Assembly (NCBI GenBank): GCA_963706595.1
Contig: OY970166.1
Span: forward strand, 5,248,001 to 5,312,000
Source: an uncultured cyanobacterium
GTDB taxonomy: Bacteria; Cyanobacteriota; Cyanobacteriia; Cyanobacteriales; Nostocaceae
Direction: 5' to 3'
DNA length: 64,000 bases
The position numbers were made by a program, and so were the translations under genes. The notes under the pieces were generated by a model. It was not told the origin of the DNA, searched no databases, and saw only the letters and a list, made by a program, of their open reading frames with translations. Positions 2,381 through 60,803 of this stretch are shown one piece after another (position 1 is the first letter of the stretch; the number at the start of each line of letters is the position of its first letter).

Positions 2381-2446
2381 AATGCTGTAGGATAAAAAGG
2401 ACTAAAGTCCTGACTACAAACCACTGATGATGAATTAAATAATTAA

Positions 2447-4255: not shown

Positions 4256-4531
4256 AATGAGGAGGAAATAGCATCTTATCCAAACTTCGCCCCAATAATA
4301 TCAAATTCAGAATACATATATAGACAAATAAACCTGAACAAAGCAGCATCTGCATATATACTAGTAGGGATAAATACAAATGCAGAAATTTAACTTATTT
4401 TTCTGTTCTGGCTACTATTTAAATACGAGGACTTCTGAGATTATATATTTTGATCACAATCAAAATAATATTGTGAAACTCTTGAGTTTGTCAAGTATAT
4501 TGATCTATGTTAATTCTGCACATCATCCCAA

Positions 4532-47039: not shown

Positions 47040-48878
47040 GTGAATAAAAGATGGAGAAATGCGGGGCTGTATGCGCTGCTATTTATAGTTGTCATTGCTC
47101 TAGGAACAGCATTCTTTGACAAACAACCTCAAACTAGAGAAACATGGCGATACAGTCAATTTATTCAAGAAGTTGACAAAGGCAGTGTAGATAGAGTCAG
47201 TCTGAGTGCAGACCGCTCTACAGCACTTGTTACCTCCAGAGATGGTGACAAAAAGGTAGTAACTTTAGTCAATGACCCTGATTTAATCAATAATTTGACT
47301 GAAAAGGGCGTTGATATCGCTGTTATGCCCCAAACTGACGAAGGATTTTGGTTTAAAGCACTGAGCAGTTTATTTTTCCCTGTATTGCTTCTGGTGGGTT
47401 TATTCTTCTTACTACGTCGCGCTCAAAGTGGTCCTGGAAACCAAGCCATGAACTTTGGTAAATCCAAAGCCAGAGTGCAAATGGAACCACAAACACAGGT
47501 AACATTTGGCGATGTCGCTGGTATTGACCAAGCCAAGCTGGAATTAAACGAAGTAGTAGACTTTCTGAAAAACGCCGACCGCTTTACCGCAGTTGGAGCC
47601 AAAATTCCTAAAGGTGTATTATTAGTTGGACCTCCTGGTACAGGTAAAACCCTCCTCGCTCGTGCTGTAGCTGGTGAAGCTGGTGTACCCTTCTTTTCCA
47701 TCTCTGGTTCTGAATTTGTGGAAATGTTCGTTGGTGTGGGTGCTTCCCGCGTCCGCGATTTGTTTGAACAAGCTAAAACCAACGCTCCTTGTATCGTATT
47801 TATCGATGAAATTGACGCTGTAGGTCGTCAACGGGGTGCAGGTTTAGGCGGTGGTAACGATGAACGGGAGCAAACCCTCAACCAGTTACTCACCGAAATG
47901 GATGGTTTTGAAGGTAATACAGGCATTATTATAATTGCTGCTACCAACCGTCCTGATGTCTTAGATGCAGCCTTATTGCGTCCTGGTCGTTTTGACCGTC
48001 AAGTAGTTGTAGACCGTCCTGACTATGCTGGACGTAGCGAAATTCTCAAAGTTCACGCCCGTGGTAAGACCTTAGCCAAGGATGTAGACTTAGATAAAAT
48101 TGCTCGTCGGACTCCTGGTTTTACCGGCGCAGACTTATCCAACTTGCTCAACGAAGCGGCAATTTTGGCAGCACGGCGCAACTTGACTGAAATTTCCATG
48201 GATGAAATCAATGATGCCATTGATCGCGTCTTAGCTGGACCAGAGAAGAAAGACCGGGTAATGAGCGAGAAGCGCAAAACCCTAGTAGCTTATCACGAAG
48301 CTGGTCACGCTTTAGTTGGTGCTTTGATGCCCGACTATGACCCAGTACAAAAAATCAGCATTATTCCTCGCGGTCGTGCTGGTGGTTTAACTTGGTTTAC
48401 TCCTAGTGAAGACCGGATGGACACAGGCTTGTATAGCCGTTCTTATCTGGAAAATCAAATGGCTGTAGCTTTAGGCGGTCGTTTAGCTGAAGAATTAATC
48501 TTTGGTGATGAAGAAGTTACCACTGGTGCTTCTAATGACTTGCAACAAGTAGCCCGTGTAGCGCGTCAGATGATTACTCGCTTTGGAATGAGCGATCGCT
48601 TGGGACCAGTCGCTCTTGGTCGTCAGCAAGGTAATATGTTCTTAGGCAGAGATATCATGTCAGAGCGTGATTTCTCCGAAGAAACTGCTGCTGCGATTGA
48701 TGAAGAAGTTCGTAAACTGGTGGATGTAGCTTATACACGAGCTAAAGAAGTATTAGTTAACAATCGCCACATTCTTGATTTGATTGCGAAAATGCTGGTG
48801 GAAAAAGAAACAGTAGATTCCGACGAACTGCAAGAAATTTTGACAAATAACGATGTCAAAACTGCTGCTTTCGCTTAA
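47040..48878 (+). CDS. ftsH3: ATP-dependent zinc metalloprotease FtsH (FtsH3 type)
   Basis: [22 protein letters not shown]-terminus [12 protein letters not shown]. Confidence 0.95.
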
Positions 48879-48901: not shown

Positions 48902-48945
48902 AAAATTGGGTAGTTCTGGTTTTTCCAGAGTTACCCAATTTTTTT
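48902..48945 (+). terminator. Rho-independent terminator of ftsH (possibly bidirectional)
   Basis: AAAATTGGGTAGTTCTGG-TTTT-TCCAGAGTTACCCAATTTTTTT. Confidence 0.8.
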
Positions 48946-48959
48946 ATATCGAGAGGCTT

Positions 48960-48992
48960 AGATCCCCGACTTCTTGAAGAAGTCGGGGATCT
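48960..48992. repeat. Perfect 16-bp-arm palindrome (REP-like)
   Basis: AGATCCCCGACTTCTT-G-AAGAAGTCGGGGATCT. Confidence 0.85.
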
Positions 48993-49022
48993 TTCTTTTC
49001 TTTGGGTTAGTAAATAATGCTG

Positions 49023-51497
49023 CTAATTGAAATTTATATATTCAGAAGTATATTCAGCAGGAAGTAAACGAATAAACTGACTTGGAGATTTTTGGTAGTT
49101 TTTAGAATCTCGGAGAAAAGCCGAAATAAACAAACGTTTTTTTGCCCTTGTCATCGCCACATAAAACAGGCGCTTTTCCTCTTCTAGCTTACCATCCCGG
49201 ACACTGAAATAAGTTGGAAACTCATCTTCAGATAAACCTGCGAGAAAAACCGTATCGAATTCCAAACCTTTTGATTGATGAATCGTGATAATCAGAACTT
49301 GATTATTATCCTGAGAAATTTGGTCTAAATTTTTCGCTAATGCAGTATAATCAATAATACTTCGTAGTGCAGTATCTGGATGTAGTTCTAAATCATCCTG
49401 CTTTTGAAAAATCTTGACTAGCCTTTTGAGATTTTCTAGACGTTGTGGTTCCTGCTGTTGATAATAGTCATATAAACGAGACTCAACTAAAATTTTACCC
49501 AACAAATCTGCTGGGCGCAACCTCTGGCTTGCATCTCTCCACGCTTCAATAGTATTAGCTAAAGTTTCAAATTCTTCTCCATAACGATAGACTAAAGCTT
49601 GACGATAGTCAGCACGTACTTTGACTAAAGGTATGAGAATTGCCAATAATTCAACCGTTGTCAGAGTATCATCCATAGCATGATGATTTGGTACTTGATG
49701 CAGGTTTAATTTATTTGCTAAATTTGACAAACTATAGCTATCTGATTTTATAAACCTTTTAGCTAAATCCCAAGTATCCGCCCATTGAAATTTAGGAGTT
49801 GATAAACCTAACTTTTGAGCATGGGCTATGATCATTTTAATATCAAAACCCAGATTATGCCCAACTAAAAAGGCATCTTGAATAAAATCTAAAAATCTCT
49901 CAAATACATCAATTGCATTCTCGCCATTAGTTGCTAAGAACTCATCACTGTAACCATGTATTTGTTCAGAATCTCCCACAGCAACAGTATTTTGAATATA
50001 AGCATGAAATTCTGCTTTCACCTGTCCCTTAACTAATTTTACCGCCGCAATTTCGATGACTTCATCTTGACTCACTGAAAAACCAGTTGTTTCCACATCA
50101 AAAACAACAATTGTGCCATTATTATAAGCAGATATTAAATTACTAAAAGGGTCGCCATCAATAAAGGTTTGAGTAGATACCATATCAGTGAGTTTAAACC
50201 CACAAGCGTCACCCTCTTGGATAACATTTTCAATGGTGACAGAACCTATACCACGACTGGGACGTATTAATAGCCGCCGCATTGAACCTGTATCAAAAGG
50301 GTTTAAAACTAACCGCAGATAAGCCAGAGCATCCTTAACTTCCTGACGCATAAAAAATTGATGCTGCTCGACTGTAACACAGGGAATATTTAACTGTTCT
50401 AGAACTTTAGTAACAATCTCAATTCGTTTGTGATTTCTAGTTAAAACAGCAACACGATTATAGAGCATATCGGGGTCATTATGAGATAATTTTTTAATCT
50501 GCGCCCCAATCCATTGAGCTTCATCGAGTTCATTTTTAGCTGCATAAATGGGAATTAATTCTCCCACTTCACAAACAGGTGCGGGAGTAATTTTTGTATA
50601 TCTTTGTTCAAAAGAATCAGCAAAACCAGAAGCAGCCTTGAGTAATGTTTGAGTCGCGCGGTAGTTCCAAGTGAGAGAGTATTCTTGAGGTTGAAATTCT
50701 TGTTTAAATTGACTAATAACTTTATCAGGTTCGGAACCTCGCCACTCGTAAATAGTTTGGTCTAAATCACCAATCATGGCGATATTACCAGTAGGAGAAG
50801 CTAAACATCTGACAATTTCATATTCAGATAGATGAGTATCTTGGACTTCATCAACTTGGATAAACTCAAAGCGTTGCTTCCATCTTTGTTGAATTTCCGG
50901 ATAATATTGCAGCATGGAACGCACGTAAAATATTAAGTCTGCAAAATCGACAGCATGACGTTCTTGAAGAATGCTTTGATATTTACTCGCTAATTGTGCT
51001 TGACGTATTCCTAGAGATGCAAACAGTTTTTCTAAGGGATAATGGGGTGATAACTGCAACTGACTAGCTTTAACTTTACAATCAGCTAATTTAGAAAATA
51101 TATCTTGAGCTTCTTTGTCCTTTGTGAAACGGAAAATATCTTTAATCAGTCCTAGACAGTCAGCATCATCATAAACTACAAAATCTGCTGGTAAACCAAT
51201 TTGACGAGCTTCAACTCGCAGCATGGAAGTACATAAACTATGAAAGGTTTTTATAGTGATGTAGCGAAATTCTTGAGGACACATTTCTGCTAACCTTTCT
51301 TGCATTTCTTTAGCTGCTCGGTTAGTGAAAGTCAAACACAGAATTTTTTCAGCAGGAATACCGCTTTGAATAGCTTGAACTACTCTTGATGATAAAACGC
51401 GGGTTTTACCAGTTCCCACGGGAGCAAGAACTAAAATTGCTCCGTTGATGTGGTTGATGATTTTTAATTGGTCTGGATTGGGTCGGGTTTGTGACAT
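49023..51497 (-). CDS. UvrD/PcrA-like SF1 helicase with an inserted DEDDh 3'-5' exonuclease domain
   Basis: APVGTGKT, TFTNRAA, VDEVQD, GDLDQTIYEWRGS, TIHQSKGLEFD, EEKRLFYVAMTRAK. Insert: FDVETTG..HNLGFD..HHAMDD. Confidence 0.92.
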   Translation of the reverse strand: MSQTRPNPDQLKIINHINGAILVLAPVGTGKTRVLSSRVVQAIQSGIPAEKILCLTFTNRAAKEMQERLAEMCPQEFRYITIKTFHSLCTSMLRVEARQIGLPADFVVYDDADCLGLIKDIFRFTKDKEAQDIFSKLADCKVKASQLQLSPHYPLEKLFASLGIRQAQLASKYQSILQERHAVDFADLIFYVRSMLQYYPEIQQRWKQRFEFIQVDEVQDTHLSEYEIVRCLASPTGNIAMIGDLDQTIYEWRGSEPDKVISQFKQEFQPQEYSLTWNYRATQTLLKAASGFADSFEQRYTKITPAPVCEVGELIPIYAAKNELDEAQWIGAQIKKLSHNDPDMLYNRVAVLTRNHKRIEIVTKVLEQLNIPCVTVEQHQFFMRQEVKDALAYLRLVLNPFDTGSMRRLLIRPSRGIGSVTIENVIQEGDACGFKLTDMVSTQTFIDGDPFSNLISAYNNGTIVVFDVETTGFSVSQDEVIEIAAVKLVKGQVKAEFHAYIQNTVAVGDSEQIHGYSDEFLATNGENAIDVFERFLDFIQDAFLVGHNLGFDIKMIIAHAQKLGLSTPKFQWADTWDLAKRFIKSDSYSLSNLANKLNLHQVPNHHAMDDTLTTVELLAILIPLVKVRADYRQALVYRYGEEFETLANTIEAWRDASQRLRPADLLGKILVESRLYDYYQQQEPQRLENLKRLVKIFQKQDDLELHPDTALRSIIDYTALAKNLDQISQDNNQVLIITIHQSKGLEFDTVFLAGLSEDEFPTYFSVRDGKLEEEKRLFYVAMTRAKKRLFISAFLRDSKNYQKSPSQFIRLLPAEYTSEYINFN

Positions 51498-51508
51498 AGA
51501 AAACTTAT

Positions 51509-54500
51509 TTAAATACCGAGAGATTTATAGGGTTTATCTTCTCGAGAACTTGATTGTTTTAGACTGTAATAAGAACGAACTAATGCAGGTTCATCTTGAT
51601 CAAAAAGTACTGAGACTTTTCCATCTAATGCAAGCTTACATGAATCAGAAATGAGATAATCTGTTGCTTTGCATAAATCTTCTAAATTGGAAAGACTAGC
51701 CAACTTTGCTGGGTCATGTAATCCCAAAATTAATATATAGTTTTTCTTTATCCTAGTAATAATTTGAGGAGAACTAGCTAATATGTCGCAAATTGATTGA
51801 ATAGTTTGGTGATCCTCAAACTGTTTAGCAACAGATCCTAGATATAACCATGTTTCAGTTGCTTTGAGGCGTTCAATATCAGATTTACCTTCTATGGCAG
51901 ATTTGAAAATAAATTCCCAATCTTTTACATCAAGATTTGGCAAAAAACGCATGGCTTCCAGAATAACAGCACGCAGGTAATTACTTGTTTCATTTGTTTT
52001 GTTAATATACTCTTCTTGTAGCTGTTTAATAGCTTCAGTATAACCTTGACGTGCCAGACTAAGAATAACATCTAGTAAGTCTCTTATGACAAATAATTCT
52101 TCGTCGCAAATCAGTTTAACAATTTCTATCCATACGTCATCAAACTCTTGCCATGCGTCATAAAACTCTTTATTAAAACCTAAAATTGATAATTTATTGA
52201 TAGCAAATCTTAAGTGGGTTTCCTCCTTTCTTTGTTTAATTTTAAGTTTACGTTTTTCTTCATTTGTACTGGGTGTGCGACTTTTTCTTTGTGCAATAAC
52301 TTCTCTCAATGAAGCAAGGCTATTATAAAACAACTGAAGAATTTTTTGTTTTAAATCTTTTTTATCTTTTAGCCATAGACATTCTAAATTATCAAAGCTT
52401 CTTGTCCAGTTGGAAATGATATTAAAATTACTGCCATTAGGAAAATGTGGTAATTTTAATTCGTTAATTGTATTCTCGCTCTGCTGGAATAAAATCTGAT
52501 AAATTTTTCTGCTTAGATAAGTATCGCTAACATATATATTAATTGAAAAAAGACACTGCTGATATATTTTTATTAACTGCCACCAAAGAATTTCTTTTTC
52601 ACTATTATGAGCAAATCTAAATTTTGTACGGTAGTTCGAGTTCATTAACCATAATTTATACATTAAAAAGTTAAATTCTTTGCCTAATTTTTCTAACGCA
52701 TCATCGTCAGCAAAAACTTCTAAAAACAAATTTATATTTTTATAAACATCAGTTTTATCATTATTAATTGCAAGTCCAAGCTTTTCTAACTCGTCATACA
52801 ATACAGATTTAACATTCTCAATATATCTGACATCTGCACTAGGTAGAATCATAATTATATCATCAACATAGCGGTAAAAATCTAGTTGAAATTGCTTATT
52901 ATTTCTCAAATTGTTATCTAAAGAGATTAAATATAAATTTGCATAAAATCCTGATGTATTTGTACCTTGATTCAGCCCTATTTCCTCTCGAATTTTGGCG
53001 GAATTATCATAACTTAAATCTCTATAAATAAGTTTCCTTAATAACCACTCAATACGTTTACTACTTTGTCCATCTTTTTCTAGTTTATACTTAACAATAT
53101 CGAGAAGCTTATTTTGCTTTATTTTGGTATAGTAAGCTTGGATGTCAGTTCTCAGAACTACACCATCTTTATTTTTTTGCCTTTTCGCACTTTTAGTCAC
53201 ATCTTCTCTAAACTTTTTCCAGTCTTCCCACCAGTTTTCATATAAATATTCTGTTTCATTCTCATAGGATTTTTTTTGGGGCTTATAGGTATAAAAATCA
53301 AGCTCCATTTTTTGACCAATTACTTGAATAATTGCATTTGCTAAGATTTCTTCCTCTAGCCTCGAAAGTTGTTTAGGACGACTACTGGTACTTCCTTTGG
53401 GAATATTAGCTGATACTGTTTCTTTACGAGCATCTATGAGATAGCAATAATCTATTAAGCACTGCTGCATTTCTCGAAGATGATGTTCTAGATGTCTTTC
53501 AAACAATAAAATTTCTATGTCATCATATAGGAATTCATCCAATACATTTTTTCTGGCTCTAACCCAGGCTAACTCAAGATTTTTAAGATCGATAACTCCC
53601 GCCCAATTTTTATCTTGTTCTACTTCACGATTAGTAATAGTTAAAAAGCTAACTGGAAAGGTTGAAGAATAATGTGATTTATTATTATCAAACCAATAAC
53701 TATCAATAGGATTATTAAATTCAACTTGCTGTAATTGTTTTAAATTATCATTTTTGCACAGTGCATGACTATCATTAATTACTTTTTCAACAGCTTTAAC
53801 TATTTCTGCCATCCCTTCGTTTAATTGATAATAAGAATAATTTTGGCGAATATGCTTATCCATATCTTTTGTGCCTACAGTCAATAGATGTAAATTTTCT
53901 AGTGGTACTTCTTCTAATAGTTGCTTATATGATAAAGCTTCTTCTTGCCAAATTTCTTTCTCATCTGGCATAATTAAATCAACCTCTACACCTAAATCTT
54001 TGAGCTTTTCATATTGTTGTTTTTTAAAAAGTTCTTCTTGATTTAATGATGAAACAATATCAAGTTGGGTAATTAAAAGATTGGATATAACAGGATGCTC
54101 CCAAAATATGCGTTTCTTTTGAAGATAGCGCATTGTAGTAATAATTCCTTTGGGAACACTCTCACAGATAGGCTGAAACTCTAAATGAATGTTGAATGAT
54201 TTAATATTCTCTTTGATTTCCTGCATTAACTTGCTATATAGTGTAAAACCATAAATACTAGGGTCAATACCTAGACAAATAATTTCCAGTGGATTTGAAA
54301 TTTCTTCATCCTTCTTCCACGCTAAAATTCTCTCAATAAAAGCAGCAGAGGCGGCTCCCATAGCACCTATATCTATTAGACAGATACGTGGGTTATATTT
54401 GAGTCTGTTGAGTAGTTTAGTTGATTGAATAGTTTTTTCTAGAATATGGGCAGCTTCAAAATAGTAACGCGGAAAAAGAGCATAGAATTGAAAAGCTGTA

Positions 54501-55057
54501 TTTTTTAAATCTGCTTTATCTAACGAATACCAAATATCTTGTGCATAATCGAGTTCCTTGTATCCGTTAGCTTCTGGCCTTTCTGATAACCATTGATGTA
54601 CAGCAGAGTAAGCAGATTCAATCACAGGATGAAAAGAGCGATAAATTTTGGCCTCTTTAGCCATAACTAAATTCGTGAGTTGTTTCGACTTTTGCGCGGG
54701 AAGTCCTGATAGTGCTTGTAACAAGAGTTCCTTGGCTATGTCATTAATAGCCTTTCCATCATTTTCGGCTCTCTGTTTTAAAGCTTCTATGGTTTCATCC
54801 TCTAGTCGAATAGTGACTACCCTTCCTGGTTCCCATAAGATAGTTAACTCACCATTGAGAACCTGAACAACATCTTCAATAGTTTCTAGTCTAGATTTAC
54901 CAGGATTTTCTATTGCTTTACTAATAGAACTGTGATATCGCGAAGCAGGGGAAACATCTCCTCCTATGGCTCGATATTCTGCAAATTCCTTGGCTAGTTT
55001 GTACAACGTCCAGTCCAACTTCTTGAGACGTTGCTCGAAATCCTCTTTTTGTATCAT
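51509..55057 (-). CDS. Multidomain reverse transcriptase (UG/Abi-like): HTH - RHH - SAM methyltransferase-like - RT - alpha-helical repeats
   Basis: RT blocks NLELAW, PKGSTSSRP, TDIQAYYTKI, GLNQGTNTSGFYANLYL, YRYVDDI and LGLAINNDKT. N-terminal Cro-like HTH, then RHH VTIRLEDETIEALKQRA. LIDIGAMGAAS and LGIDPS resemble MTase motifs. Confidence 0.88.
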   Translation of the reverse strand: MIQKEDFEQRLKKLDWTLYKLAKEFAEYRAIGGDVSPASRYHSSISKAIENPGKSRLETIEDVVQVLNGELTILWEPGRVVTIRLEDETIEALKQRAENDGKAINDIAKELLLQALSGLPAQKSKQLTNLVMAKEAKIYRSFHPVIESAYSAVHQWLSERPEANGYKELDYAQDIWYSLDKADLKNTAFQFYALFPRYYFEAAHILEKTIQSTKLLNRLKYNPRICLIDIGAMGAASAAFIERILAWKKDEEISNPLEIICLGIDPSIYGFTLYSKLMQEIKENIKSFNIHLEFQPICESVPKGIITTMRYLQKKRIFWEHPVISNLLITQLDIVSSLNQEELFKKQQYEKLKDLGVEVDLIMPDEKEIWQEEALSYKQLLEEVPLENLHLLTVGTKDMDKHIRQNYSYYQLNEGMAEIVKAVEKVINDSHALCKNDNLKQLQQVEFNNPIDSYWFDNNKSHYSSTFPVSFLTITNREVEQDKNWAGVIDLKNLELAWVRARKNVLDEFLYDDIEILLFERHLEHHLREMQQCLIDYCYLIDARKETVSANIPKGSTSSRPKQLSRLEEEILANAIIQVIGQKMELDFYTYKPQKKSYENETEYLYENWWEDWKKFREDVTKSAKRQKNKDGVVLRTDIQAYYTKIKQNKLLDIVKYKLEKDGQSSKRIEWLLRKLIYRDLSYDNSAKIREEIGLNQGTNTSGFYANLYLISLDNNLRNNKQFQLDFYRYVDDIIMILPSADVRYIENVKSVLYDELEKLGLAINNDKTDVYKNINLFLEVFADDDALEKLGKEFNFLMYKLWLMNSNYRTKFRFAHNSEKEILWWQLIKIYQQCLFSINIYVSDTYLSRKIYQILFQQSENTINELKLPHFPNGSNFNIISNWTRSFDNLECLWLKDKKDLKQKILQLFYNSLASLREVIAQRKSRTPSTNEEKRKLKIKQRKEETHLRFAINKLSILGFNKEFYDAWQEFDDVWIEIVKLICDEELFVIRDLLDVILSLARQGYTEAIKQLQEEYINKTNETSNYLRAVILEAMRFLPNLDVKDWEFIFKSAIEGKSDIERLKATETWLYLGSVAKQFEDHQTIQSICDILASSPQIITRIKKNYILILGLHDPAKLASLSNLEDLCKATDYLISDSCKLALDGKVSVLFDQDEPALVRSYYSLKQSSSREDKPYKSLGI

Positions 55058-55096
55058 TTTTGTCTGCTCCCCTATGTGTTGGCTGTTGATAAACTC

Positions 55097-55125
55097 AGCT
55101 TATCCCCATTTATGTATTACGTCAA
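55097..55125 (-). promoter_or_regulatory. Sigma70-type promoter for the RT-helicase operon
   Basis: Minus strand TTGACG-N17-TAAGCT; RBS AGGGGAG at 55067-55073. Confidence 0.65.
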
Positions 55126-55164
55126 TGATATAGTTTACTAAAAAAGTTGGCGACAACAAAAATC

Positions 55165-55193
55165 TTGACAGTGTTTAATTTGCGTGTAACAAT
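55165..55193 (+). promoter_or_regulatory. Divergent sigma70-type promoter
   Basis: TTGACA-N17-AACAAT with extended -10 TG. Confidence 0.6.
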
Positions 55194-55203
55194 AGCTGAA
55201 GAC

Positions 55204-55285
55204 GCAAAAAAGAAGGCACTCCAACTTCATTGGAATGCCTTTTGCTCTAGTGAACCTCTCCCAATTGCCTTGGGATGGGCTACTA
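55204..55285 (+). other. Two-hairpin structured leader or candidate ncRNA
   Basis: AAGGCACTCCAA-CTTCA-TTGGAATGCCTT and TCCCAA-TTGCC-TTGGGA, closed by TAGT/ACTA. Confidence 0.5.
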
Positions 55286-55349
55286 ACTTGCTTCATTTAA
55301 ATTGTTTGTAGAATTCTCAAACTCCGAAATAAAATCAAAGGAACGAAAA

Positions 55350-55682
55350 ATGAGAACTATATCTAACCATGATAACTCATCGGCTGTTGACATAGCACAA
55401 ACACTTGCCCCTCTTCCTGCTCCTCTGCCTGAAAAAATTACATTTATGGAAGTGACGCTGGCTTTAGTCAACGCACAAAACCAACAAATTCAGGAAAAAC
55501 GGGATGATGAGAGACGTGGGTATTTAATGCAAGACATTATGCGGTTAATTGCACAGCTTGGAATTCCCTCTGGTAATCAGCGTGTTCTCAAAGCAATGAC
55601 AACTTCACAACTTGATGCTTATGCAGAGGAGTTGTCTCAGCAGCTAAAAAACCGTCCGATGAAACATCTGTCAGTAGCATAG
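55350..55682 (+). CDS. Small hypothetical helical protein divergent from the RT
   Basis: ATG at 55350 after AAAGGA; 110 aa; followed by a hairpin. Confidence 0.65.
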   Translation: MRTISNHDNSSAVDIAQTLAPLPAPLPEKITFMEVTLALVNAQNQQIQEKRDDERRGYLMQDIMRLIAQLGIPSGNQRVLKAMTTSQLDAYAEELSQQLKNRPMKHLSVA

Positions 55683-55697
55683 TACAATGTAATTTGA

Positions 55698-55728
55698 CCA
55701 GGAGGGGCATTTATTATGCCTTTCTTGG
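55698..55728 (+). terminator. Hairpin after the small ORF
   Basis: CCAGGAGGGGCAT-TTATT-ATGCCTTTCTTGG. Confidence 0.5.
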
Positions 55729-55810
55729 GTTGCGAAGTCAGGTAGTGAACTCCAATTTCCCCATTAAGCCCCAAAAACAGCAATATTTTCAAACTTTTCT
55801 ATCATATTTC

Positions 55811-55849
55811 TCCCCTCCTCGCTTGCGGGGAGGGGCTGGGGGTGGGGTT
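55811..55849. repeat. Dispersed G/C-rich palindromic repeat, copy 3
   Basis: Near-identical to 651-690; abuts the bioB stop codon. Confidence 0.85.
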
Positions 55850-56861
55850 AAACTACAACGACTGGAGTTGTCACCTTTTCCGGTCTTTGGTGGGGAGGAC
55901 GCATTTCTAAGCCCAACAAATTCAGCATTTCTTTGTCAGCGTCATAATCTGGACAGGGAGTAGTGACTGTGAGCATTTGATTATCATCGCTGGAGAAGAT
56001 GGAATTTGCCCCAGCCATAAAGCATAAGGCTTGTTCCACTTGGGAAAGTCTCGCCCTACCAGCACTCAGACGCACGTCAGAATTTGGCATAATTATTCTG
56101 GCTGTGGCGATCATGCGTACTACTTCCCAAATCGGTACATCTGGTTGGTTTTCTAGGGGTGTACCGGGGACTTGGGAAAGAATATTAATGGGGACGGACT
56201 CTGGATGAGGTTGTAAATTTGATAGAGTTTCTAACATCCCCACACGATCTTCGACGCTTTCGCCTAAACCGAGGATACCGCCAGAACAGACGGTGACATT
56301 TGTCTGTCGGACATTATCGATTGTATTCAGGCGATCGCCATAAGTTCTCGTGGTAATAATCGTATTATAATATTCCGCAGAAGTATCCAAGTTATGGTTA
56401 TAAGCATATAGTCCGGCTGCTTCTAAGCGTTTCGCCTGATTTGTGGTCAGCATTCCCAGAGTACAGCAGACTTCTAAACCCATATCGGTGACTTCTTTCA
56501 CCATTTCCAGGACTGTCTCAAATTGCGAGTTATCCCGCACTTCCCGCCAAGCTGCACCCATGCAAACGCGACTTACGCCCGTTGCTTTGGCTTTTTGGGC
56601 AATATTAATCACTGTTTCCTTCTCTAACAGTGCTTGAGGCTTGACTTCGGTTTGATAACGGGAAGACTGGGCGCAGTAGCCGCAATCTTCGGGACAAGCA
56701 CCTGTTTTAATGGAGATTAGCTTACAAACTTGTATTTTTGTTGAATCATGATATTGGCGATGCACGCTAGCAGCTTGATAAATCAGCTCTAGGAATGGAG
56801 TGTTGTATATCGCCTGAATCTCTGCTTTCTGCCAATTATAGCGTATTCCCACCGACATCAC
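55848..56861 (-). CDS. bioB: Biotin synthase
   Basis: CPEDCGYC radical-SAM motif, [15 protein letters not shown]. Confidence 0.97.
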
Positions 56862-57602: not shown

Positions 57603-57922
57603 AAGGAGAGGGGAGAATTAAGCCGCCGGGAGTCCAAAGTAATTTCCAATCCCCCTGCTCCCTGCTCCCTGCTTCTTTCTCAATCTGGTCTCAAGTTTGT
57701 AGGGTGTGTTGTCGCGTAGCGCAACGCACCATCCTAAATTTCGGTGCGTTAGGACTAAAGTCCATAACGCACCCTACCAAATGAAAGGTTTTTGGACTTG
57801 TGTGTACACCGTAGTTCCTTCCCAAGGAGAGGGGAGAATTAAGCCGCCGGGAGGGAGTCCAAAGTAATTTCCAATCCCCCTGCTCCCTGCTCCCCCGCTT
57901 CTTTTTCAATCTGGTCTCAAGT
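57603..57922. repeat. ~95-bp direct duplication (57603-57696 and 57824-57922) bracketing a REP-like palindrome and a lone MITE end
   Basis: Both copies read AAGGAGAGGGGAGAATTAAGCCGCCGGGAG...CAATCTGGTCTCAAGT. GTAGGGTG...CACCCTAC at 57699-57777. GACTTGTGTGTACACCGTAG at 57795-57814 is identical to 715-734. Confidence 0.85.
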
Positions 57923-60803
57923 CGTTAGATAATTCGATAATTCCTCTAGAGCCATCCATCCGTACCCGTTGCCCATCCTGTAATATCCAGGTGGCATTGT
58001 GAACATCCATGATGGCGGGAATTCCGTACTCACGCGCGATGATTGCACCGTGGGAAAGTCGCCCACCAGCCTCAGCAATTAAGCCGCCAGCCCTGACTAA
58101 CAGAGGGGCCCAGCCGGAATCTGTGTAAGGTACTACCAAAATTGTTTCGCGGTTGATTTCTGGTAAATCTTGTAAATTCCTTACCACCTTGATTCTTCCT
58201 TCGGCTTGTCCGTGACTGGCGGGAATACCCTGTAATGTTTGGTCTGAGTAAAGAGGCGAGGGGGGAAGGGGATGGGGTGGTGTATGCCCGTAAACTAAAA
58301 GGGGGATTTGATTAAACTGACTATCTTGGTCGAATTGCGATCGCCTCAATTGTACTATCTCAGATAAATTTTTCCTGAGTTGAAAATCATCACCCACTAC
58401 TAAGCGCCGCACTTCCGGTAATTCTAGAAAAAAGATATCCCCAGTTTGCTGAAGTAAGCCGGATTTTAACCAAATTTGCTCTAAGGCTACAAATCGCCAG
58501 CGCAATTCAGCCAATAGTCGAGAATACAGTTCGGTAACTCGTCCTTTAATATCTACCCGTCGCTGTACTACCCCTCGTTTGCGCTTGGCTGATAAAATTC
58601 GATTGATGGCATCTCCACCATCTCCATCTGTCTCTGCTCTATTTTGCAATAACTGCACAAACAATTGCTTGATGGGTTGGGGGTTTTCCTTCCAGGTCGG
58701 AACAGCAATATTTGTCCCCACATCACTTAAATAACCGTAATCTTCCAGCAGTTCGTTAAATTCATCGAGAATTTTTTCTCCCTCTGGGGTTTGTGACAAT
58801 TGTTCAAATACTTGATTTGGTTCGCACTCAGGTAATACTTGTTTCGCATCTGCGGCTAAAGCAGTGAGCGATCGCAATGCTGATACTTCTGGAGCTACAC
58901 TGTGATCAATTTCCTCATCTTTGACCCGAAAAATGGCCTGTCTCAAGGCTGCACTCAAGGGCGCTAAGATGCTGTAATAAGTGCCACTGCGGAGCAATTG
59001 CAGAATCAAATCTATTTTTTCTAAGAGCTGGGGCGCTGTCAGTTCTTCTATAGATTCATTTGCTAGTTGTGACAAACCGGGAATAAATTTTCGACTATAA
59101 TCCCGCTTAAAGTCTTTTTCTAAGCTGAGTTCTTGCTTCAGCAGCCGCATTAATCCCGGCAAATTCGCCAAAGTGGACTTTAACGCTGGTTTGCTCATTT
59201 TAGCGCCTCTGGTTAAAAATTCCAGACTTTCCGGTGGTAAGCCCATCCGCAGAAAAATCTGTCCTAAGAGGGATGCGTTAAAATAAGCTCTAGAGTGATG
59301 CAGTGTGGCAGTTTCGGTAAAATCTAATCCCAAGGCGCGATCGCCTAAAACCAAAGTGAAAATATCTCCCCAAACCCCACAAGTTAGGGGGCGATTAATT
59401 GACCAGGTTAAGGGTTGAATGACACCAGGAATAACTTCGGCGGCGATTTTCCTGGTCCAGATAGGTAACAGGGTCGTAATGGGTCGAGATTGCAAAACCC
59501 AGAGATTTTGACTGTCATAGGTCCATTCAATATCTTGGGGCAGACCGTGATATTGTTTTTCTAGTCGCCGGACTAAGTATACTACTTGTTTAATTAATGC
59601 TTGTGGTACTTGCCCTCTGCCCTCTAACTGCACAGAGGAAATATTCTCTGTTTCTACCACAAAAGCGCGATATTGTTCTGGTGTAACTTTGCCGGAAACA
59701 ACTTGAGTGGCGCTACCGGGTAAAGCTTCAATGACAATTGCATCGCCTTGTTGGGTGATGGGGTCGCGACTGAAAGCTACGCCAGAATACACACTCTGAA
59801 TTTGTTGTTGTACCAGTACTGCCATTGCTGTATCTGGTAAACCGCGATCGCGCCGATATTGGACAGCCGATGGATGATTGTATGAAGCTTGGACTTGAGC
59901 GATCGCCACTTTTAATTCCTGTTGGCTGGTAACATTCAAAATTGTTATGTACTGTCCAGCCGCCGAAGCTTGTTCCGAGTCTTCCCCGATAGCCGAGGAA
60001 CGCACCACTAAAGGAGATAAATCAGAAGGCTGAAGCATTGCAATCAAGCCTTCGGGATCATCCGTTGGGGAAATCACCCATCCTTTCGGCACTGGATAGC
60101 CCCAGCGCTTAATTTGAGATAATGTAGCGGCTTTTTGACCGACCACAGCCGGATCTAACTCGTCATCTAGAGAAAGAAGCGAGCGATTACCGCGTAAATA
60201 TGCAAAAGCTGCTTGTGAATCTGTCTCGGCTGCTTGGACTGGCAAATTCAAATCATCGGGAATTTTTGTGTAAATCCACCCCAATACACTAGCTAGGACA
60301 ATAGCCGCCATGACTTTGGGGAAATTGCCAACATTCAGAAGCAAGACAAACACGGGAAACACAAATAAAACTCCGAATTTTACCCGTTGCCGAGATTGCA
60401 GAACTGTAAAACTGATAATTGCCAACAAACCTGTAAATATCGAAACCAGGGGGTCATGGACGATAAATCCCCAAACGACGTTGGTTGTACCTGCCCCTCT
60501 ACCTACCCCATATCTACCTAATACCAAAGTCATCAGGGCGATTAATTCCCAAGCCGATCCTTCGGGAAAAAACACGCGAGACAGGAATACTGCCACAATT
60601 CCTTTGATTGCTTCTGACAAAACAGCCAGAATACCTACTAGTCTGCCGCCATGATAAAAAGCGGCTGAAACGCTGATGTTTTTAGTGCCAATTTGTGATA
60701 ACTGCCTACCTTTGAGGGCGTAGGTAATCCAATCAATAATTGGTAACGCTCCCAAGACTGGACAGGCAATTAAAATAACTAAGGCTCCCCAAAGTTCACT
60801 CAT
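57906..60803 (-). CDS. PlsY-like acyltransferase membrane domain fused to PEP-synthase/PPDK-like nucleotide-binding and phosphohistidine domains
   Basis: GTKNISVSAA, SEAIKG and GRGAGT (PlsY-like); VVRSSAIGEDS, QDIEW, LQSRPIT; GGRLSHGAIIAREYGIPA. Confidence 0.85.
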   Translation of the reverse strand: MSELWGALVILIACPVLGALPIIDWITYALKGRQLSQIGTKNISVSAAFYHGGRLVGILAVLSEAIKGIVAVFLSRVFFPEGSAWELIALMTLVLGRYGVGRGAGTTNVVWGFIVHDPLVSIFTGLLAIISFTVLQSRQRVKFGVLFVFPVFVLLLNVGNFPKVMAAIVLASVLGWIYTKIPDDLNLPVQAAETDSQAAFAYLRGNRSLLSLDDELDPAVVGQKAATLSQIKRWGYPVPKGWVISPTDDPEGLIAMLQPSDLSPLVVRSSAIGEDSEQASAAGQYITILNVTSQQELKVAIAQVQASYNHPSAVQYRRDRGLPDTAMAVLVQQQIQSVYSGVAFSRDPITQQGDAIVIEALPGSATQVVSGKVTPEQYRAFVVETENISSVQLEGRGQVPQALIKQVVYLVRRLEKQYHGLPQDIEWTYDSQNLWVLQSRPITTLLPIWTRKIAAEVIPGVIQPLTWSINRPLTCGVWGDIFTLVLGDRALGLDFTETATLHHSRAYFNASLLGQIFLRMGLPPESLEFLTRGAKMSKPALKSTLANLPGLMRLLKQELSLEKDFKRDYSRKFIPGLSQLANESIEELTAPQLLEKIDLILQLLRSGTYYSILAPLSAALRQAIFRVKDEEIDHSVAPEVSALRSLTALAADAKQVLPECEPNQVFEQLSQTPEGEKILDEFNELLEDYGYLSDVGTNIAVPTWKENPQPIKQLFVQLLQNRAETDGDGGDAINRILSAKRKRGVVQRRVDIKGRVTELYSRLLAELRWRFVALEQIWLKSGLLQQTGDIFFLELPEVRRLVVGDDFQLRKNLSEIVQLRRSQFDQDSQFNQIPLLVYGHTPPHPLPPSPLYSDQTLQGIPASHGQAEGRIKVVRNLQDLPEINRETILVVPYTDSGWAPLLVRAGGLIAEAGGRLSHGAIIAREYGIPAIMDVHNATWILQDGQRVRMDGSRGIIELSNDLRPD

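What the first reader, a model, noticed from the sequence alone, without database searches (positions are those of the whole stretch)
49023..55682. Candidate new RT-based anti-phage system: multidomain RT, helicase-exonuclease and a divergent small gene
Seen: a 1182-aa protein with an intact RT core (YVDD) lies 11 bp upstream of a co-oriented UvrD helicase carrying a DEDDh exonuclease. The pair forms an island between ftsH and bioB. Established: UG/Abi RTs with helical-repeat C-termini (AbiK, Abi-P2, several DRTs) act in phage defence, and some polymerise DNA without a template. The RT lacks a group II intron maturase/HNH tail, a retron VTG motif, Cas1 and DGR accessory elements. Inference: the RT makes a ssDNA product that the helicase-exonuclease turns over, and phage disturbance of this balance triggers defence. 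I do not recall this RT + UvrD-DEDDh pairing among named DRT types, but could not search.
Basis: partly seen in the sequence, partly recalled or inferred. Interest (0 to 1): 0.92.

Follow-up and report, generated by a model that had tools for sequence, protein, structure and literature searches.

The report
Catalogued UG35 reverse transcriptase–helicase module
This cyanobacterial island carries a reverse transcriptase and a helicase-exonuclease that were already listed together in 2022 as an untested candidate anti-phage system (UG35), here in a variant with an extra DNA-binding head and a small partner gene.

Summary
A 1182-aa RT with YVDD at aa 730-733 lies 11 bp upstream of an 824-aa UvrD/PcrA-like helicase with an intact DEDDh exonuclease. 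A real small gene diverges from the RT, and the island sits between ftsH and bioB.

The pairing is not new. PADLOC scores the RT as RT_UG35 (976 bits) and the helicase as RTasHel (1039 bits). Mestre et al. 2022 describe UG35 as a Class 1 UG/Abi RT with an N-terminal methylase, associated with a UvrD-like helicase. They did not test it and called its defence signal inconclusive.

- RT and helicase co-diverge. 13 of 18 assessable helicase-bearing genomes have the RT adjacent.
- All 30 full-length helicases keep the SF1 and DEDDh motifs.
- The methylase-like domain resembles METTL17/Rsm22.
- The window belongs to a long-form clade with a ribbon-helix-helix N-terminus and an orphan 110-aa divergent gene.
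- Sister UG35 clades carry DUF1848 or no partner.

Most likely function is phage defence by untemplated DNA synthesis, with the helicase-exonuclease turning over the product. This is inferred and untested.

The parts
48949..55818 (.). Accessory island between ftsH and bioB. The left edge lies between 48948 and 49031.
   Evidence: blastn against same-genus genomes: G318 homology ends at 48948 and resumes at 55819; G376 homology runs to 49031. GC is 0.347 against 0.42-0.43 in the flanks. G318 holds 1.87 kb of unrelated cargo at this site.
49023..51497 (-). SF1A UvrD/PcrA-like helicase with an embedded DEDDh 3'-5' exonuclease (PADLOC RTasHel), 824 aa
   Evidence: PADLOC RTasHel 1039 bits. Pfam UvrD-helicase, UvrD_C and RNase_T. 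PDB sequence matches: PcrA/UvrD/Rep to aa 7-427 and aa 733-815. Motifs I, Ia, II, III, IV, V and VI are conserved in 30 of 30 full-length RT-linked helicases.
49617..50132 (-). DEDDh exonuclease domain (aa 456-627), at the position of helicase subdomain 2B
   Evidence: Matches the PolC exonuclease 2p1j at aa 456-627, E 1.5e-24. The ExoI (D467, E469), ExoII (D552) and ExoIII (H605, D610) residues are conserved in 30 of 30. Placement in 2B is inferred from the alignment boundaries and was not modelled here.
51509..55057 (-). UG35 Class 1 UG/Abi reverse transcriptase, long form, 1182 aa
   Evidence: PADLOC RT_UG35 976 bits, aa 137-1176 against model positions 2-937 of 938. 93 homologous clusters, nearly all cyanobacterial by name.
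54653..55057 (-). N-terminal extension (aa 1-135): a helical segment followed by a ribbon-helix-helix at aa 81-116
   Evidence: FitA-like RHH matched in 16 of 18 clade members and RHH_1 in 13 of 18, at E<=0.01. Mean column identity is 80%. Present only in the long-form clade. AF2 confidence is low here, pLDDT 36-67. No HTH family matched.
53630..54649 (-). Class I methyltransferase-like domain (aa 137-476), closest to METTL17/Rsm22
   Evidence: The AF2 model is confident here, pLDDT mostly 80-96. Foldseek gave 144 PDB matches at E<=0.001, led by METTL17/Rsm22 chains and SAM methyltransferases. In VIA-align the top 11 rows are all METTL17/Rsm22 (Z 17.7-20.4, 243-269 residues aligned, rmsd 3.4-5.3); the next best methyltransferase scores Z 13.5. 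Motif I residues D229, G231 and G234 are invariant. The window has a one-residue deletion in the glycine loop.
52598..53593 (-). RT fingers/palm core (about aa 489-820); YVDD encoded at 52859-52870
   Evidence: Pfam RVT_1 at 552-772. PADLOC RT models cover aa 489-807. A profile of the family matches solved group II intron-like RTs, Drt2, Drt3a, Abi-P2 and UG15 RT cores.
51512..52597 (-). C-terminal region (aa 821-1182), reported for UG35 as alpha-helical repeats (alphaRep)
   Evidence: Covered by the UG35 profile match. The alphaRep assignment comes from Mestre 2022 and was not modelled here.
55350..55682 (+). SMALL: a divergent 110-aa orphan gene of no known family
   Evidence: tblastn finds it in 12 long-form loci plus the window. 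In the alignment 18 columns are invariant. Only 10 clusters were found among 1.84 billion representatives. AF2 gives pLDDT 75.8, with a long helix at 26-70 and two short helices. No Pfam, PADLOC or NCBIfam hit.
55201..55316 (-). Conserved structured non-coding element between SMALL and the RT, with a terminator-like hairpin at 55213-55241
   Evidence: Alignment and RNAalifold: 19 predicted pairs, 8 of them with compensatory changes. Terminator scan. Covariance model R1 hits only the 12 SMALL-bearing loci plus the window among 75 sources. Those loci are the sequences the model was built from.
55125..55193 (.). Back-to-back predicted promoters: + strand 55165-55193 (TTGACA-17-AACAAT) towards SMALL; - strand 55153-55125 (TCGCCA-17-TATCAT) towards the RT
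   Evidence: Consensus scan only. The 7.1-kb scan found 28 promoter-like sites against 25.7 expected from shuffles, so this is not evidence of function.

Best explanation
The locus is a member of the catalogued but experimentally untested UG35 system. It pairs a Class 1 UG/Abi reverse transcriptase, fused to a methyltransferase-like domain, with a dedicated UvrD/PcrA-like helicase that carries a DEDDh 3'-5' exonuclease. It sits as a horizontally acquired island. The window holds the long-form variant: gene order SMALL <-> RT -> helicase, with a ribbon-helix-helix N-terminus on the RT.

Proposed working (inferred, not shown):
1. Like the characterised Class 1 relatives, the RT makes DNA without a nucleic-acid template, probably primed on the protein. 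This leaves a free 3' end.
2. The helicase translocates 3'->5', and its built-in 3'-5' exonuclease engages that end and keeps the product short in uninfected cells.
3. A phage factor that protects ssDNA ends or blocks the helicase-exonuclease lets the product accumulate. That stops the infected cell or the phage.
4. The RHH N-terminus and SMALL form an add-on regulatory layer acting at the shared divergent promoter region.

Identity is close to certain. Defence function I put at about 0.65. The write-and-erase mechanism I put at about 0.35.
For: Identity:
- RT_UG35 976 bits and RTasHel 1039 bits.
- Mestre 2022 describe the same architecture and partner.

RT and helicase as a functional unit, counting from the RT:
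- In the tree of 54 full-length RTs, the two helicase-linked clades hold 36 rows.
- 13 of 16 long-form rows have helicase sequence directly downstream. Three of these are partial: L004 and L010 are cut by the contig end, and L006 has a 227-aa fragment.
- 18 of 20 short-form rows have a full helicase directly upstream.

Counting from the helicase:
- 21 cyanobacterial genomes had the helicase: 8 of 401 in the phylum sample and 19 of 401 in the order sample, both including the window's genome.
- 13 of the 18 assessable genomes have UG35 adjacent.
- The helicase tree separates the RT-upstream and RT-downstream types, mirroring the RT tree.

Catalytic competence:
- RT residues D638, Y730, D732 and D733 are invariant in 20 of 20.
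- All SF1 and DEDDh motifs are kept in 30 of 30 helicases.

Accessory, mobile character:
- UG35 was found in 4 of 401 sampled cyanobacterial genomes and in 0 of 2 other same-genus genomes.
- The island has low GC, and a relative carries different cargo at the same site.
- In genus g7 a type II restriction-modification pair occupies the RT's place next to the same helicase.

No family-wide ncRNA, consistent with untemplated synthesis:
- Rfam found nothing meaningful.
- Model R1 hits only SMALL-bearing loci.
- The short-form flanks hold no conserved non-coding block.

Analogy from papers:
- Class 1 DRTs catalyse untemplated synthesis (abstract of PMC13174585, seen in the search listing).
- DRT4 ssDNA is degraded by exonucleases until a phage protein protects its 3' end (PMC13213688, part 1 of 2 of the text read).
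- The host exonuclease SbcB restrains DRT10 (abstract of 10.64898/2026.04.29.721553).
Against: - No experiment exists for UG35. Mestre 2022 call its defence-island signal inconclusive.
- The flanks here are housekeeping genes, not known defence genes.
- The helicase is not obligatory. Three long-form loci (L003, L005, L008) keep RT and SMALL without it.
- 13 of 74 loci pair a UG35-scoring RT with DUF1848 instead.
- Chloroflexota and Acidobacteriota members show no conserved partner.
- 22 of 22 helicase-less full-length RTs still score as UG35.
- The helicase can persist without the RT: G104, G208 and G494.
- No effector domain is evident, so the way accumulated DNA would stop infection is open.
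- No match in the phage or plasmid collections.
- Product, priming mode and binding between the proteins were not tested.
Confidence: 0.45

Rival explanations
1. The helicase-exonuclease is the effector, not the eraser. The RT, through its product or through its methyltransferase-like and repeat domains, senses infection. It then recruits or licenses the helicase-exonuclease to unwind and degrade phage DNA (or host DNA) from 3' ends. This would be interference in the manner of nuclease-helicase defences.
For: - Every catalytic motif of the helicase and the exonuclease is conserved in 30 of 30.
- The helicase is far more conserved than the RT: 60-88% against 33-56% identity to the window.
- The same helicase sits 15 nt downstream of a type II restriction-modification pair in G208 and G104, where degrading cut DNA would make sense.
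- PADLOC GajB profiles match the helicase at about 300 bits.
- No other effector is encoded in the island.
Against: - The R-M-linked helicases are nested beside an RT-linked one (96% SH-aLRT). In G168 the helicase is truncated. So the R-M linkage looks like a recent replacement of the RT, not a designed partnership.
- Three loci keep RT and SMALL without the helicase.
- A single-strand 3'-5' exonuclease is a weak weapon against duplex phage genomes.
Confidence: 0.25
2. The module is not a phage-defence system. It is an accessory DNA-damage or replication-stress module, or a selfish addiction-type cassette. In the second case the antitoxin-like RHH head and SMALL would control a toxic polymerase.
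For: - The defence-island signal for UG35 is inconclusive.
- The neighbours here are housekeeping genes.
- A PrimPol-RT of the same superfamily is reported to contribute to an oxidative DNA-damage response (abstract of 10.1101/2025.09.07.674619, seen in the search listing).
- The RHH domain matches antitoxin families: FitA-like, CopG and BrnA.
- The locus moves between sites: in G086 it lies elsewhere than ftsH-bioB.
Against: - Distribution is sporadic: 4 of 401 genomes.
- The RT core diverges fast and is mosaic.
- The site carries interchangeable cargo, and in one genus an R-M cassette replaces the RT. These are hallmarks of defence loci.
- Every experimentally characterised UG/Abi system I saw in the papers searched is anti-phage.
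Confidence: 0.15
3. The RT is RNA-templated after all. The METTL17/Rsm22-like domain holds a structured RNA that serves as template or primer. The candidates are the conserved element upstream of the RT in long-form loci, or a host RNA such as rRNA.
For: - The methyltransferase-like domain is specifically closest to the rRNA-binding assembly factors METTL17/Rsm22: Z 17.7-20.4 against <=13.5 for other methyltransferases.
- A conserved structured element of about 115 nt, with a terminator in the RT sense, lies 150-260 nt upstream of the RT start.
Against: - The element occurs only where SMALL occurs and in none of the short-form, DUF1848-linked or non-cyanobacterial loci.
- The short-form flanks hold no conserved non-coding block.
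- By the abstract seen, characterised Class 1 relatives are untemplated.
- A shared fold shows no function.
Confidence: 0.12

Closest known systems
UG35 system of Mestre et al. 2022 (Class 1 UG/Abi RT + cluster 22 UvrD-like helicase; PADLOC RT_UG35 + RTasHel)
   Same: Full-length profile matches for both proteins. An N-terminal methylase-like domain fused to the RT, and an adjacent co-oriented UvrD-like helicase.
   Different: The main text of that paper does not mention four features. Its terms 'exonuclease', 'DEDD', 'ribbon-helix', 'Rsm22' and 'METTL17' each give 0 hits.
- The DEDDh exonuclease inside the helicase.
- The RHH N-terminal extension: the PADLOC model starts at aa 137 of this protein.
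- The divergent small gene.
- The reversed gene order in the long-form clade.

Its Table S2 was not available to me, so some of this may be noted there.
DRT4 (UG15) and DRT10 (UG17)
   Same: UG/Abi RTs whose DNA product is kept down by exonucleases until phage factors interfere. That is the logic proposed here.
   Different: In those systems the exonucleases are host enzymes (SbcB for DRT10); here one is encoded in the operon and fused to a helicase. DRT10 is Class 2, ncRNA-templated, and has a SLATT effector. DRT4 is a single gene. PADLOC scores for other UG models are at most 111 bits, against 976 for UG35.
AbiK / Abi-P2 (Class 1 UG/Abi, protein-primed untemplated polymerases)
   Same: Same RT class. 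The RT core of the family profile matches the solved Abi-P2 chain 7r08 at E 5.9e-07.
   Different: Those are stand-alone proteins with no methyltransferase-like domain and no helicase partner. Priming and product of UG35 are unknown.
UG25 / DUF1848-associated RTs (PADLOC RT_UG25, RTasDUF1848)
   Same: A sister architecture, methylase-like domain plus RT. 13 of 74 related loci here carry a DUF1848 gene next to the RT.
   Different: Those RTs still score far higher on RT_UG35 (783-1341 bits) than on RT_UG25 (<=204 bits). So within what PADLOC calls UG35, the helicase and DUF1848 are alternative partners.
PcrA / UvrD / Rep and Gabija GajB
   Same: An SF1A helicase core with all motifs. GajB profiles match at about 300 bits.
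   Different: A DEDDh exonuclease domain sits where subdomain 2B lies. No GajA is adjacent. The genome has a separate PcrA-like gene at 30% identity.

Membership tests
UG35 (Class 1 UG/Abi RT system) | Full-length similarity of the RT to the UG35 profile | tested here: met
   PDLC03774 RT_UG35: E 4.5e-294, 976 bits, aa 137-1176 against positions 2-937 of 938. The next best model is RT_UG25 at 111 bits.
UG35 (Class 1 UG/Abi RT system) | Intact RT catalytic core | tested here: met
   YVDD at aa 730-733. D638, Y730, D732 and D733 are invariant in 20 of 20. Pfam RVT_1 at E 9e-12.
UG35 (Class 1 UG/Abi RT system) | N-terminal methyltransferase-like domain fused to the RT | tested here: met
   AF2 model plus Foldseek and VIA-align: class I methyltransferase fold at aa 137-476; METTL17/Rsm22 at Z 17.7-20.4. 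A weak profile hit to AprA MT1, E 0.0036. SAM binding was not tested. The window has a one-residue deletion in motif I.
UG35 (Class 1 UG/Abi RT system) | C-terminal alpha-helical repeat (alphaRep) domain that defines Class 1 | not tested
The assignment rests on Mestre 2022.
UG35 (Class 1 UG/Abi RT system) | Adjacent UvrD-like helicase (cluster 22 / RTasHel) | tested here: met
   PDLC03802 RTasHel at 1039 bits; co-oriented, 11-bp gap. The neighbour is conserved.
UG35 (Class 1 UG/Abi RT system) | Anti-phage activity | not testable with these tools
   Not tested for UG35 in Mestre 2022, where the defence prediction is 'inconclusive'. No later paper was found with 'UG35'.
Named DRT types 1-10 | RT belongs to the UG group that defines the type (UG1, 2, 3+8, 15, 16, 12, 10, 7, 28, 17) | tested here: not met
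   PADLOC scores: Drt2 54.5 bits, RT_UG10_large 60.5, RT_UG17 69.2, against 976 for UG35. The mapping of types to UG numbers is partly recalled.
Group II intron RT/maturase | Maturase/X domain, intron RNA, full-length match to TIGR04416 | tested here: not met
   TIGR04416 scores 76.6 bits against a cut-off of 300, over the RT core only. No intron RNA in the Rfam scan at E<=1.
Retron | msr/msd ncRNA next to a short RT with a VTG motif | tested here: not met
   No VTG. No retron RNA family. PADLOC retron RT_outgroup scores only 29.5 bits.
Gabija | GajB helicase paired with the GajA OLD-family nuclease | tested here: not met
   GajB profiles match at 310 bits or less, below RTasHel at 1039. The island holds only three genes and none is GajA-like.
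Type II toxin-antitoxin (RHH antitoxin) | Small RHH antitoxin gene paired with a toxin gene | tested here: inconclusive
   An RHH domain is present: 16 of 18 members match FitA-like RHH. It is fused to the RT rather than being a separate antitoxin. SMALL matches no toxin or antitoxin family.

The most novel reading that the evidence does not exclude
A self-contained 'write-and-erase' DNA immune module, the first DRT-type system to carry its own product-erasing enzyme.

- An RT fused to a METTL17/Rsm22-like domain makes untemplated, protein-tethered ssDNA.
- A dedicated SF1A helicase with a DEDDh exonuclease in its 2B position continuously removes that DNA.
- Phage proteins that protect 3' ends or block the helicase tip the balance.
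- In the long-form clade, an RHH head on the RT, an orphan 110-aa protein and a structured RNA element add a second switch.
- The RT core (aa 241 onward) is exchanged between loci as a cassette, while the head and the helicase stay conserved.
Probability: 0.25. Interest if true: 0.8.

Novelty: new member of a known kind. Interest (0 to 1): 0.45.

Why it matters
UG35 is one of the UG/Abi groups still without a phenotype or a mechanism. Meanwhile DRT1-DRT10 have each revealed an unexpected way of making DNA.

If the helicase-exonuclease is a built-in eraser of the RT product, UG35 would put into one operon a control logic that DRT4 and DRT10 leave to host exonucleases. That logic could then be tested with three point mutants.

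The comparative map made here says which architecture to clone and which controls nature has already run:
- two gene orders;
- alternative DUF1848 partners;
- helicase-less loci;
- replacement of the RT by a restriction-modification pair;
- a long form with an RHH head and the SMALL gene.

For the scan itself, the lesson is that the locus is catalogued, not new.

Tried and rejected
- Family-wide ncRNA or template: Rfam at E<=1 gave only a chance-level sRNA match, 29.8 bits against a gathering score of 65.2. Covariance model R1 hit only the loci it was built from, plus weak reverse-strand echoes, among 75 sources. No conserved block lies upstream of the helicase (16 loci) or downstream of the RT (18 loci) in the short-form clade.
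- Function of SMALL: no Pfam, PADLOC or NCBIfam family. Foldseek against PDB gave no match at E<=0.001; the best rows, including PezA and epsilon antitoxins, have E 2-8. The ESM Atlas gave no usable hit.
- SMALL-RT binding: complex prediction (RT aa 1-490 with SMALL) found the queue full. It was declared unavailable, so nothing was folded.
- Expression: no RNA holder was listed for the island, and read laying was therefore not used.
- Mobile-element carriage: tblastn of the RT against the plasmid (E<=1e-20) and phage (E<=1e-10) collections gave no match.
- HTH in aa 1-75: no HTH family among 18 members at E<=0.01. Only weak PDB profile hits to CodY, E 0.24-0.88. I call it a helical segment, not an HTH.
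- Island att sites: no convincing flanking direct repeats.
- UG25 membership of the DUF1848-linked RTs: rejected, because they score best on RT_UG35.
- Mestre 2022 Table S2 (domain notes on cluster 22): not held. Only the tree file could be searched.
- Literature on a described UvrD-DEDDh + RT pairing: searches found none. PMC13069673 was checked by passages and is unrelated.


Full report
**Observation.**
- The RT occupies 51509-55057(-) and is 1182 aa. Pfam RVT_1 covers aa 552-772. The motif YVDD lies at aa 730-733.
- In an alignment of 20 homologues, D638 (motif A), Y730, D732 and D733 are invariant.
- The helicase occupies 49023-51497(-), is 824 aa, and starts 11 bp after the RT stop. Pfam finds UvrD-helicase (7-269), UvrD_C (273-794) and an RNase_T/DEDDh exonuclease at 464-618.
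- The flanks are FtsH (47040-48878 +) and BioB (55848-56861 -).
- The divergent small ORF is real. Homologues align only from residue 13-19, so it most likely starts at the ATG at 55350, giving 110 aa.

**Identity.** PADLOC-DB scores the RT as RT_UG35 (E 4.5e-294, 976 bits; aa 137-1176 against positions 2-937 of 938). It scores the helicase as RTasHel (1039 bits). Both models are filed under DRT.
- Mestre et al. 2022 (PMC9226505; passages read) define UG35 as an entirely new Class 1 UG/Abi group. In their description it is fused to an N-terminal methylase and associated with cluster 22, a putative UvrD-like helicase.
- They list UG35 among the 16 groups whose defence prediction was inconclusive, and they did not test it.
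- A full-text search for 'UG35' with 'reverse transcriptase' returned only that paper as relevant. Two further searches found no description of a UvrD-DEDDh + RT pairing.
- So the pairing is catalogued and untested, not new.
- The locus is not a group II intron RT: TIGR04416 scores 76.6 bits against a cut-off of 300 and Rfam finds no intron RNA.
- It is not a retron: there is no VTG motif and no retron RNA.
- It is not Gabija: no GajA is present, and RTasHel far outscores the GajB profiles.

**Distribution.** The RT has 93 homologous clusters, nearly all cyanobacterial by their source names.
- The UG35 profile hit 4 of 401 sampled cyanobacterial genomes, the window's own included, and 0 of the 2 other same-genus genomes.
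- The window's genome has one UG35 RT and one helicase-DEDDh. It also has a separate PcrA-like gene at 30% identity.
- Against the same-genus genome G318, homology stops at 48948 and resumes at 55819. G318 holds 1.87 kb of unrelated cargo there: three ORFs with no Pfam or PADLOC family.
- Island GC is 0.347, against 0.42-0.43 in the flanks.
- In G086 the module lies at a different chromosomal site.
- No match was found in the plasmid or phage collections.

**Is the helicase a true partner?** I asked this from both sides.

*From the RT.* A scan of species-representative genomes gave 74 loci, of which 53 have a full-length RT ORF. A tree of these plus the window (54 rows) shows four groupings.
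- *Long-form clade* (16 rows, SH-aLRT 100). These RTs carry an N-terminal extension.
  - 13 of 16 have helicase sequence directly downstream. Of these, 10 are full length, L004 and L010 are cut by the contig end, and L006 has a 227-aa fragment.
  - L003, L005 and L008 have none.
- *Short-form clade* (20 rows, SH-aLRT 100). 18 have a full helicase directly upstream, so the gene order is reversed. L031 keeps only a C-terminal remnant and L033 has none.
- *DUF1848 group.* 13 of the 74 loci carry a DUF1848 gene beside the RT. Pfam PF08902 was checked on the representative, and PADLOC scores it as RTasDUF1848.
- *Chloroflexota and Acidobacteriota members.* These have no conserved partner.
- All 22 of 22 helicase-less full-length RTs still score best on RT_UG35, at 612-1341 bits.

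*From the helicase.* Its DEDDh-containing middle part hit 8 of 401 genomes in the phylum sample and 19 of 401 in the order sample. Both counts include the window's genome, and the union is 21 genomes. After fetching the flanks and running tblastn:
- 13 have UG35 adjacent.
- 3 have a type II restriction-modification pair exactly where the RT should be. These are G208, G104 and G168, all in one genus. The pair is a HindVP endonuclease (PF09519) and a C5 methylase (PF00145). In G168 the helicase is truncated.
- G494 has neither.
- G125 has a distant helicase (50% identity) standing alone.
- 3 sit at contig ends and cannot be judged.

The helicase tree separates the RT-upstream and RT-downstream types as the RT tree does. 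It nests the R-M-linked helicases beside the RT-linked G086 (SH-aLRT 96) and places G494's helicase beside RT-linked L036. So RT linkage is ancestral and the exceptions are recent replacements or losses.

An earlier scan note (e1-691767) had described this helicase type in another genome. It called the family widespread, with some cyanobacterial members beside RTs. My counts refine that for cyanobacteria.

**The helicase.**
- PcrA, UvrD and Rep align to aa 7-427 and aa 733-815. A PolC-type exonuclease (2p1j) aligns to aa 456-627. The exonuclease therefore sits where subdomain 2B lies. This is inferred from the alignment boundaries and was not modelled.
- In 30 of 30 full-length RT-linked helicases, motifs I, Ia, II (DEVQD), III, IV, V and VI are conserved, as are ExoI (D467, E469), ExoII (D552) and ExoIII (H605, D610).
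- The helicase is 60-88% identical to the window's across loci, while the RT is 33-56% identical.

**The RT.**
- An AlphaFold2 model of aa 1-490 (34-row alignment, mean pLDDT 73.9) is confident over aa 140-480.
- Foldseek finds 144 PDB matches at E<=0.001, led by METTL17/Rsm22 chains and SAM methyltransferases.
- In VIA-align the top 11 rows are all METTL17/Rsm22: Z 17.7-20.4, 243-269 residues aligned, rmsd 3.4-5.3. The next methyltransferase scores Z 13.5.
- This confirms the 'methylase' of Mestre 2022 and narrows it to the fold of an rRNA-binding assembly factor. A shared fold shows no function.
- Motif I residues D229, G231 and G234 are invariant. The long-form clade reads GCAMG where others read GCGAG, and the window lacks one loop residue. 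SAM binding may therefore be altered. This was not tested.
- The N-terminal 135 aa exist only in the long-form clade and are unusually conserved, with a mean column identity of 80%.
- They contain a ribbon-helix-helix at aa 81-116. FitA-like RHH matches 16 of 18 members and RHH_1 matches 13 of 18.
- The first 75 aa match no HTH family.
- The window's RT is mosaic. Aa 1-240 are 67-92% identical to L023, L045 and L024, while aa 241-1182 are only 30-58% identical. L023 against L045 is 63-88% throughout. GC falls to 0.29-0.31 over 52000-54000.

**The small gene and the intergenic region.**
- SMALL is found by tblastn in 12 long-form loci plus the window. L001 and L026 have an unrelated ORF in its place, and L010 is cut by the contig end.
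- It stays with the RT in the three loci that lack the helicase.
- A profile search of 1.84 billion representatives found only 10 clusters.
- The model (pLDDT 75.8) is a long helix followed by two short ones, and no significant fold match was found.
- Between SMALL and the RT lies a conserved element of about 115 nt (55201-55316, - strand). It carries a terminator-like hairpin followed by a T-run in the RT sense.
- RNAalifold predicts 19 pairs, 8 of them with compensatory changes.
- A covariance model finds the element only in the SMALL-bearing loci from which it was built.
- Predicted back-to-back promoters lie at 55125-55193. The scan as a whole found no more promoter-like sites than shuffled sequence gives.
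- Whether the element is an RT-sense small RNA or the SMALL leader is open, because no RNA runs were listed.

**Mechanism.** Shown: identity, conservation of the catalytic residues, co-inheritance of RT and helicase, and the accessory, mobile character of the module. Inferred: everything about activity.
- Characterised Class 1 relatives make DNA without a nucleic-acid template (abstract of PMC13174585, seen in the search listing).
- DRT4's random ssDNA is degraded by exonucleases until a phage protein protects its 3' end (PMC13213688, part 1 of 2 of the text read).
- The host exonuclease SbcB restrains DRT10 (abstract).
- A 3'->5' SF1A translocase fused to a 3'-5' exonuclease is what one would want to engage the free 3' end of a protein-tethered ssDNA.
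- I therefore favour a write-and-erase model in which a phage-caused failure of erasure triggers the response. I put this at about 0.35. The RHH head and SMALL would act as a regulatory add-on.
- No family-wide ncRNA was found, which fits untemplated synthesis.
- Rival: the helicase-exonuclease is the effector (0.25).
- Rival: the module has a non-defence role (0.15).
- Rival: RNA-templated synthesis through the Rsm22-like domain (0.12).
- Against all defence readings: the defence-island signal is inconclusive and the neighbours here are housekeeping genes.
- Against an obligatory partnership: helicase-less and DUF1848-linked UG35 loci exist.

**Verdict.** This is a new member of a catalogued, untested kind, in a long-form variant whose extra parts I did not find described. 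Interest is moderate.

Noticed in passing
L094 (G318:C11) 2415-4283, the site equivalent to window 48949-55818: A same-genus genome carries three unrelated small ORFs (114, 210 and 139 aa) between ftsH and bioB instead of the RT island. None matches a Pfam or PADLOC family. The site looks like a cargo hotspot.
   Followed up: partly
L097 4802-9435 (G208), L098 4617-9205 (G104), L100 6833-10039 (G168): A HindVP-type restriction endonuclease and a C5 DNA methylase sit directly upstream of the helicase-DEDDh gene, in the place of the UG35 RT. In G168 the helicase has lost its N-terminal half, and the endonuclease hit is split in two.
   Followed up: partly
window 51509-54340 (RT aa 241-1182) versus 54341-55057: The RT is mosaic. 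The first 240 aa and the helicase are 67-92% identical to the Nostoc, Floridaenema and Dolichospermum loci, but the rest of the RT is only 30-58% identical. GC dips to about 0.29-0.31 there. This suggests exchange of the RT core between loci.
   Followed up: partly
L019 8004-12821, L057 7980-12520, L013, L027, L039, L046, L047, L060: Several related loci have the UG35 RT split into two ORFs. In L019 and L057 the split is caused by an inserted opposite-strand ORF of 430-457 aa. These may be insertion elements or decayed copies.
   Followed up: no
window 57906-60803 (-): A 965-aa ORF combines an N-terminal G3P_acyltransf (PlsY-like) domain with PPDK_N and PEP-utilizers domains. This is an unusual fusion.
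   Followed up: no
window 48902-48942 and 48960-48992: Two strong hairpin terminators lie between the ftsH stop and the helicase stop. The second is a perfect 16-bp palindrome, also present in G376, and probably serves both convergent genes.
   Followed up: no
L002 13951-14975, L021, L023: In three Nostoc loci an HTH_17 protein and a PIN-domain protein, a toxin-antitoxin-like pair, follow the helicase.
   Followed up: no
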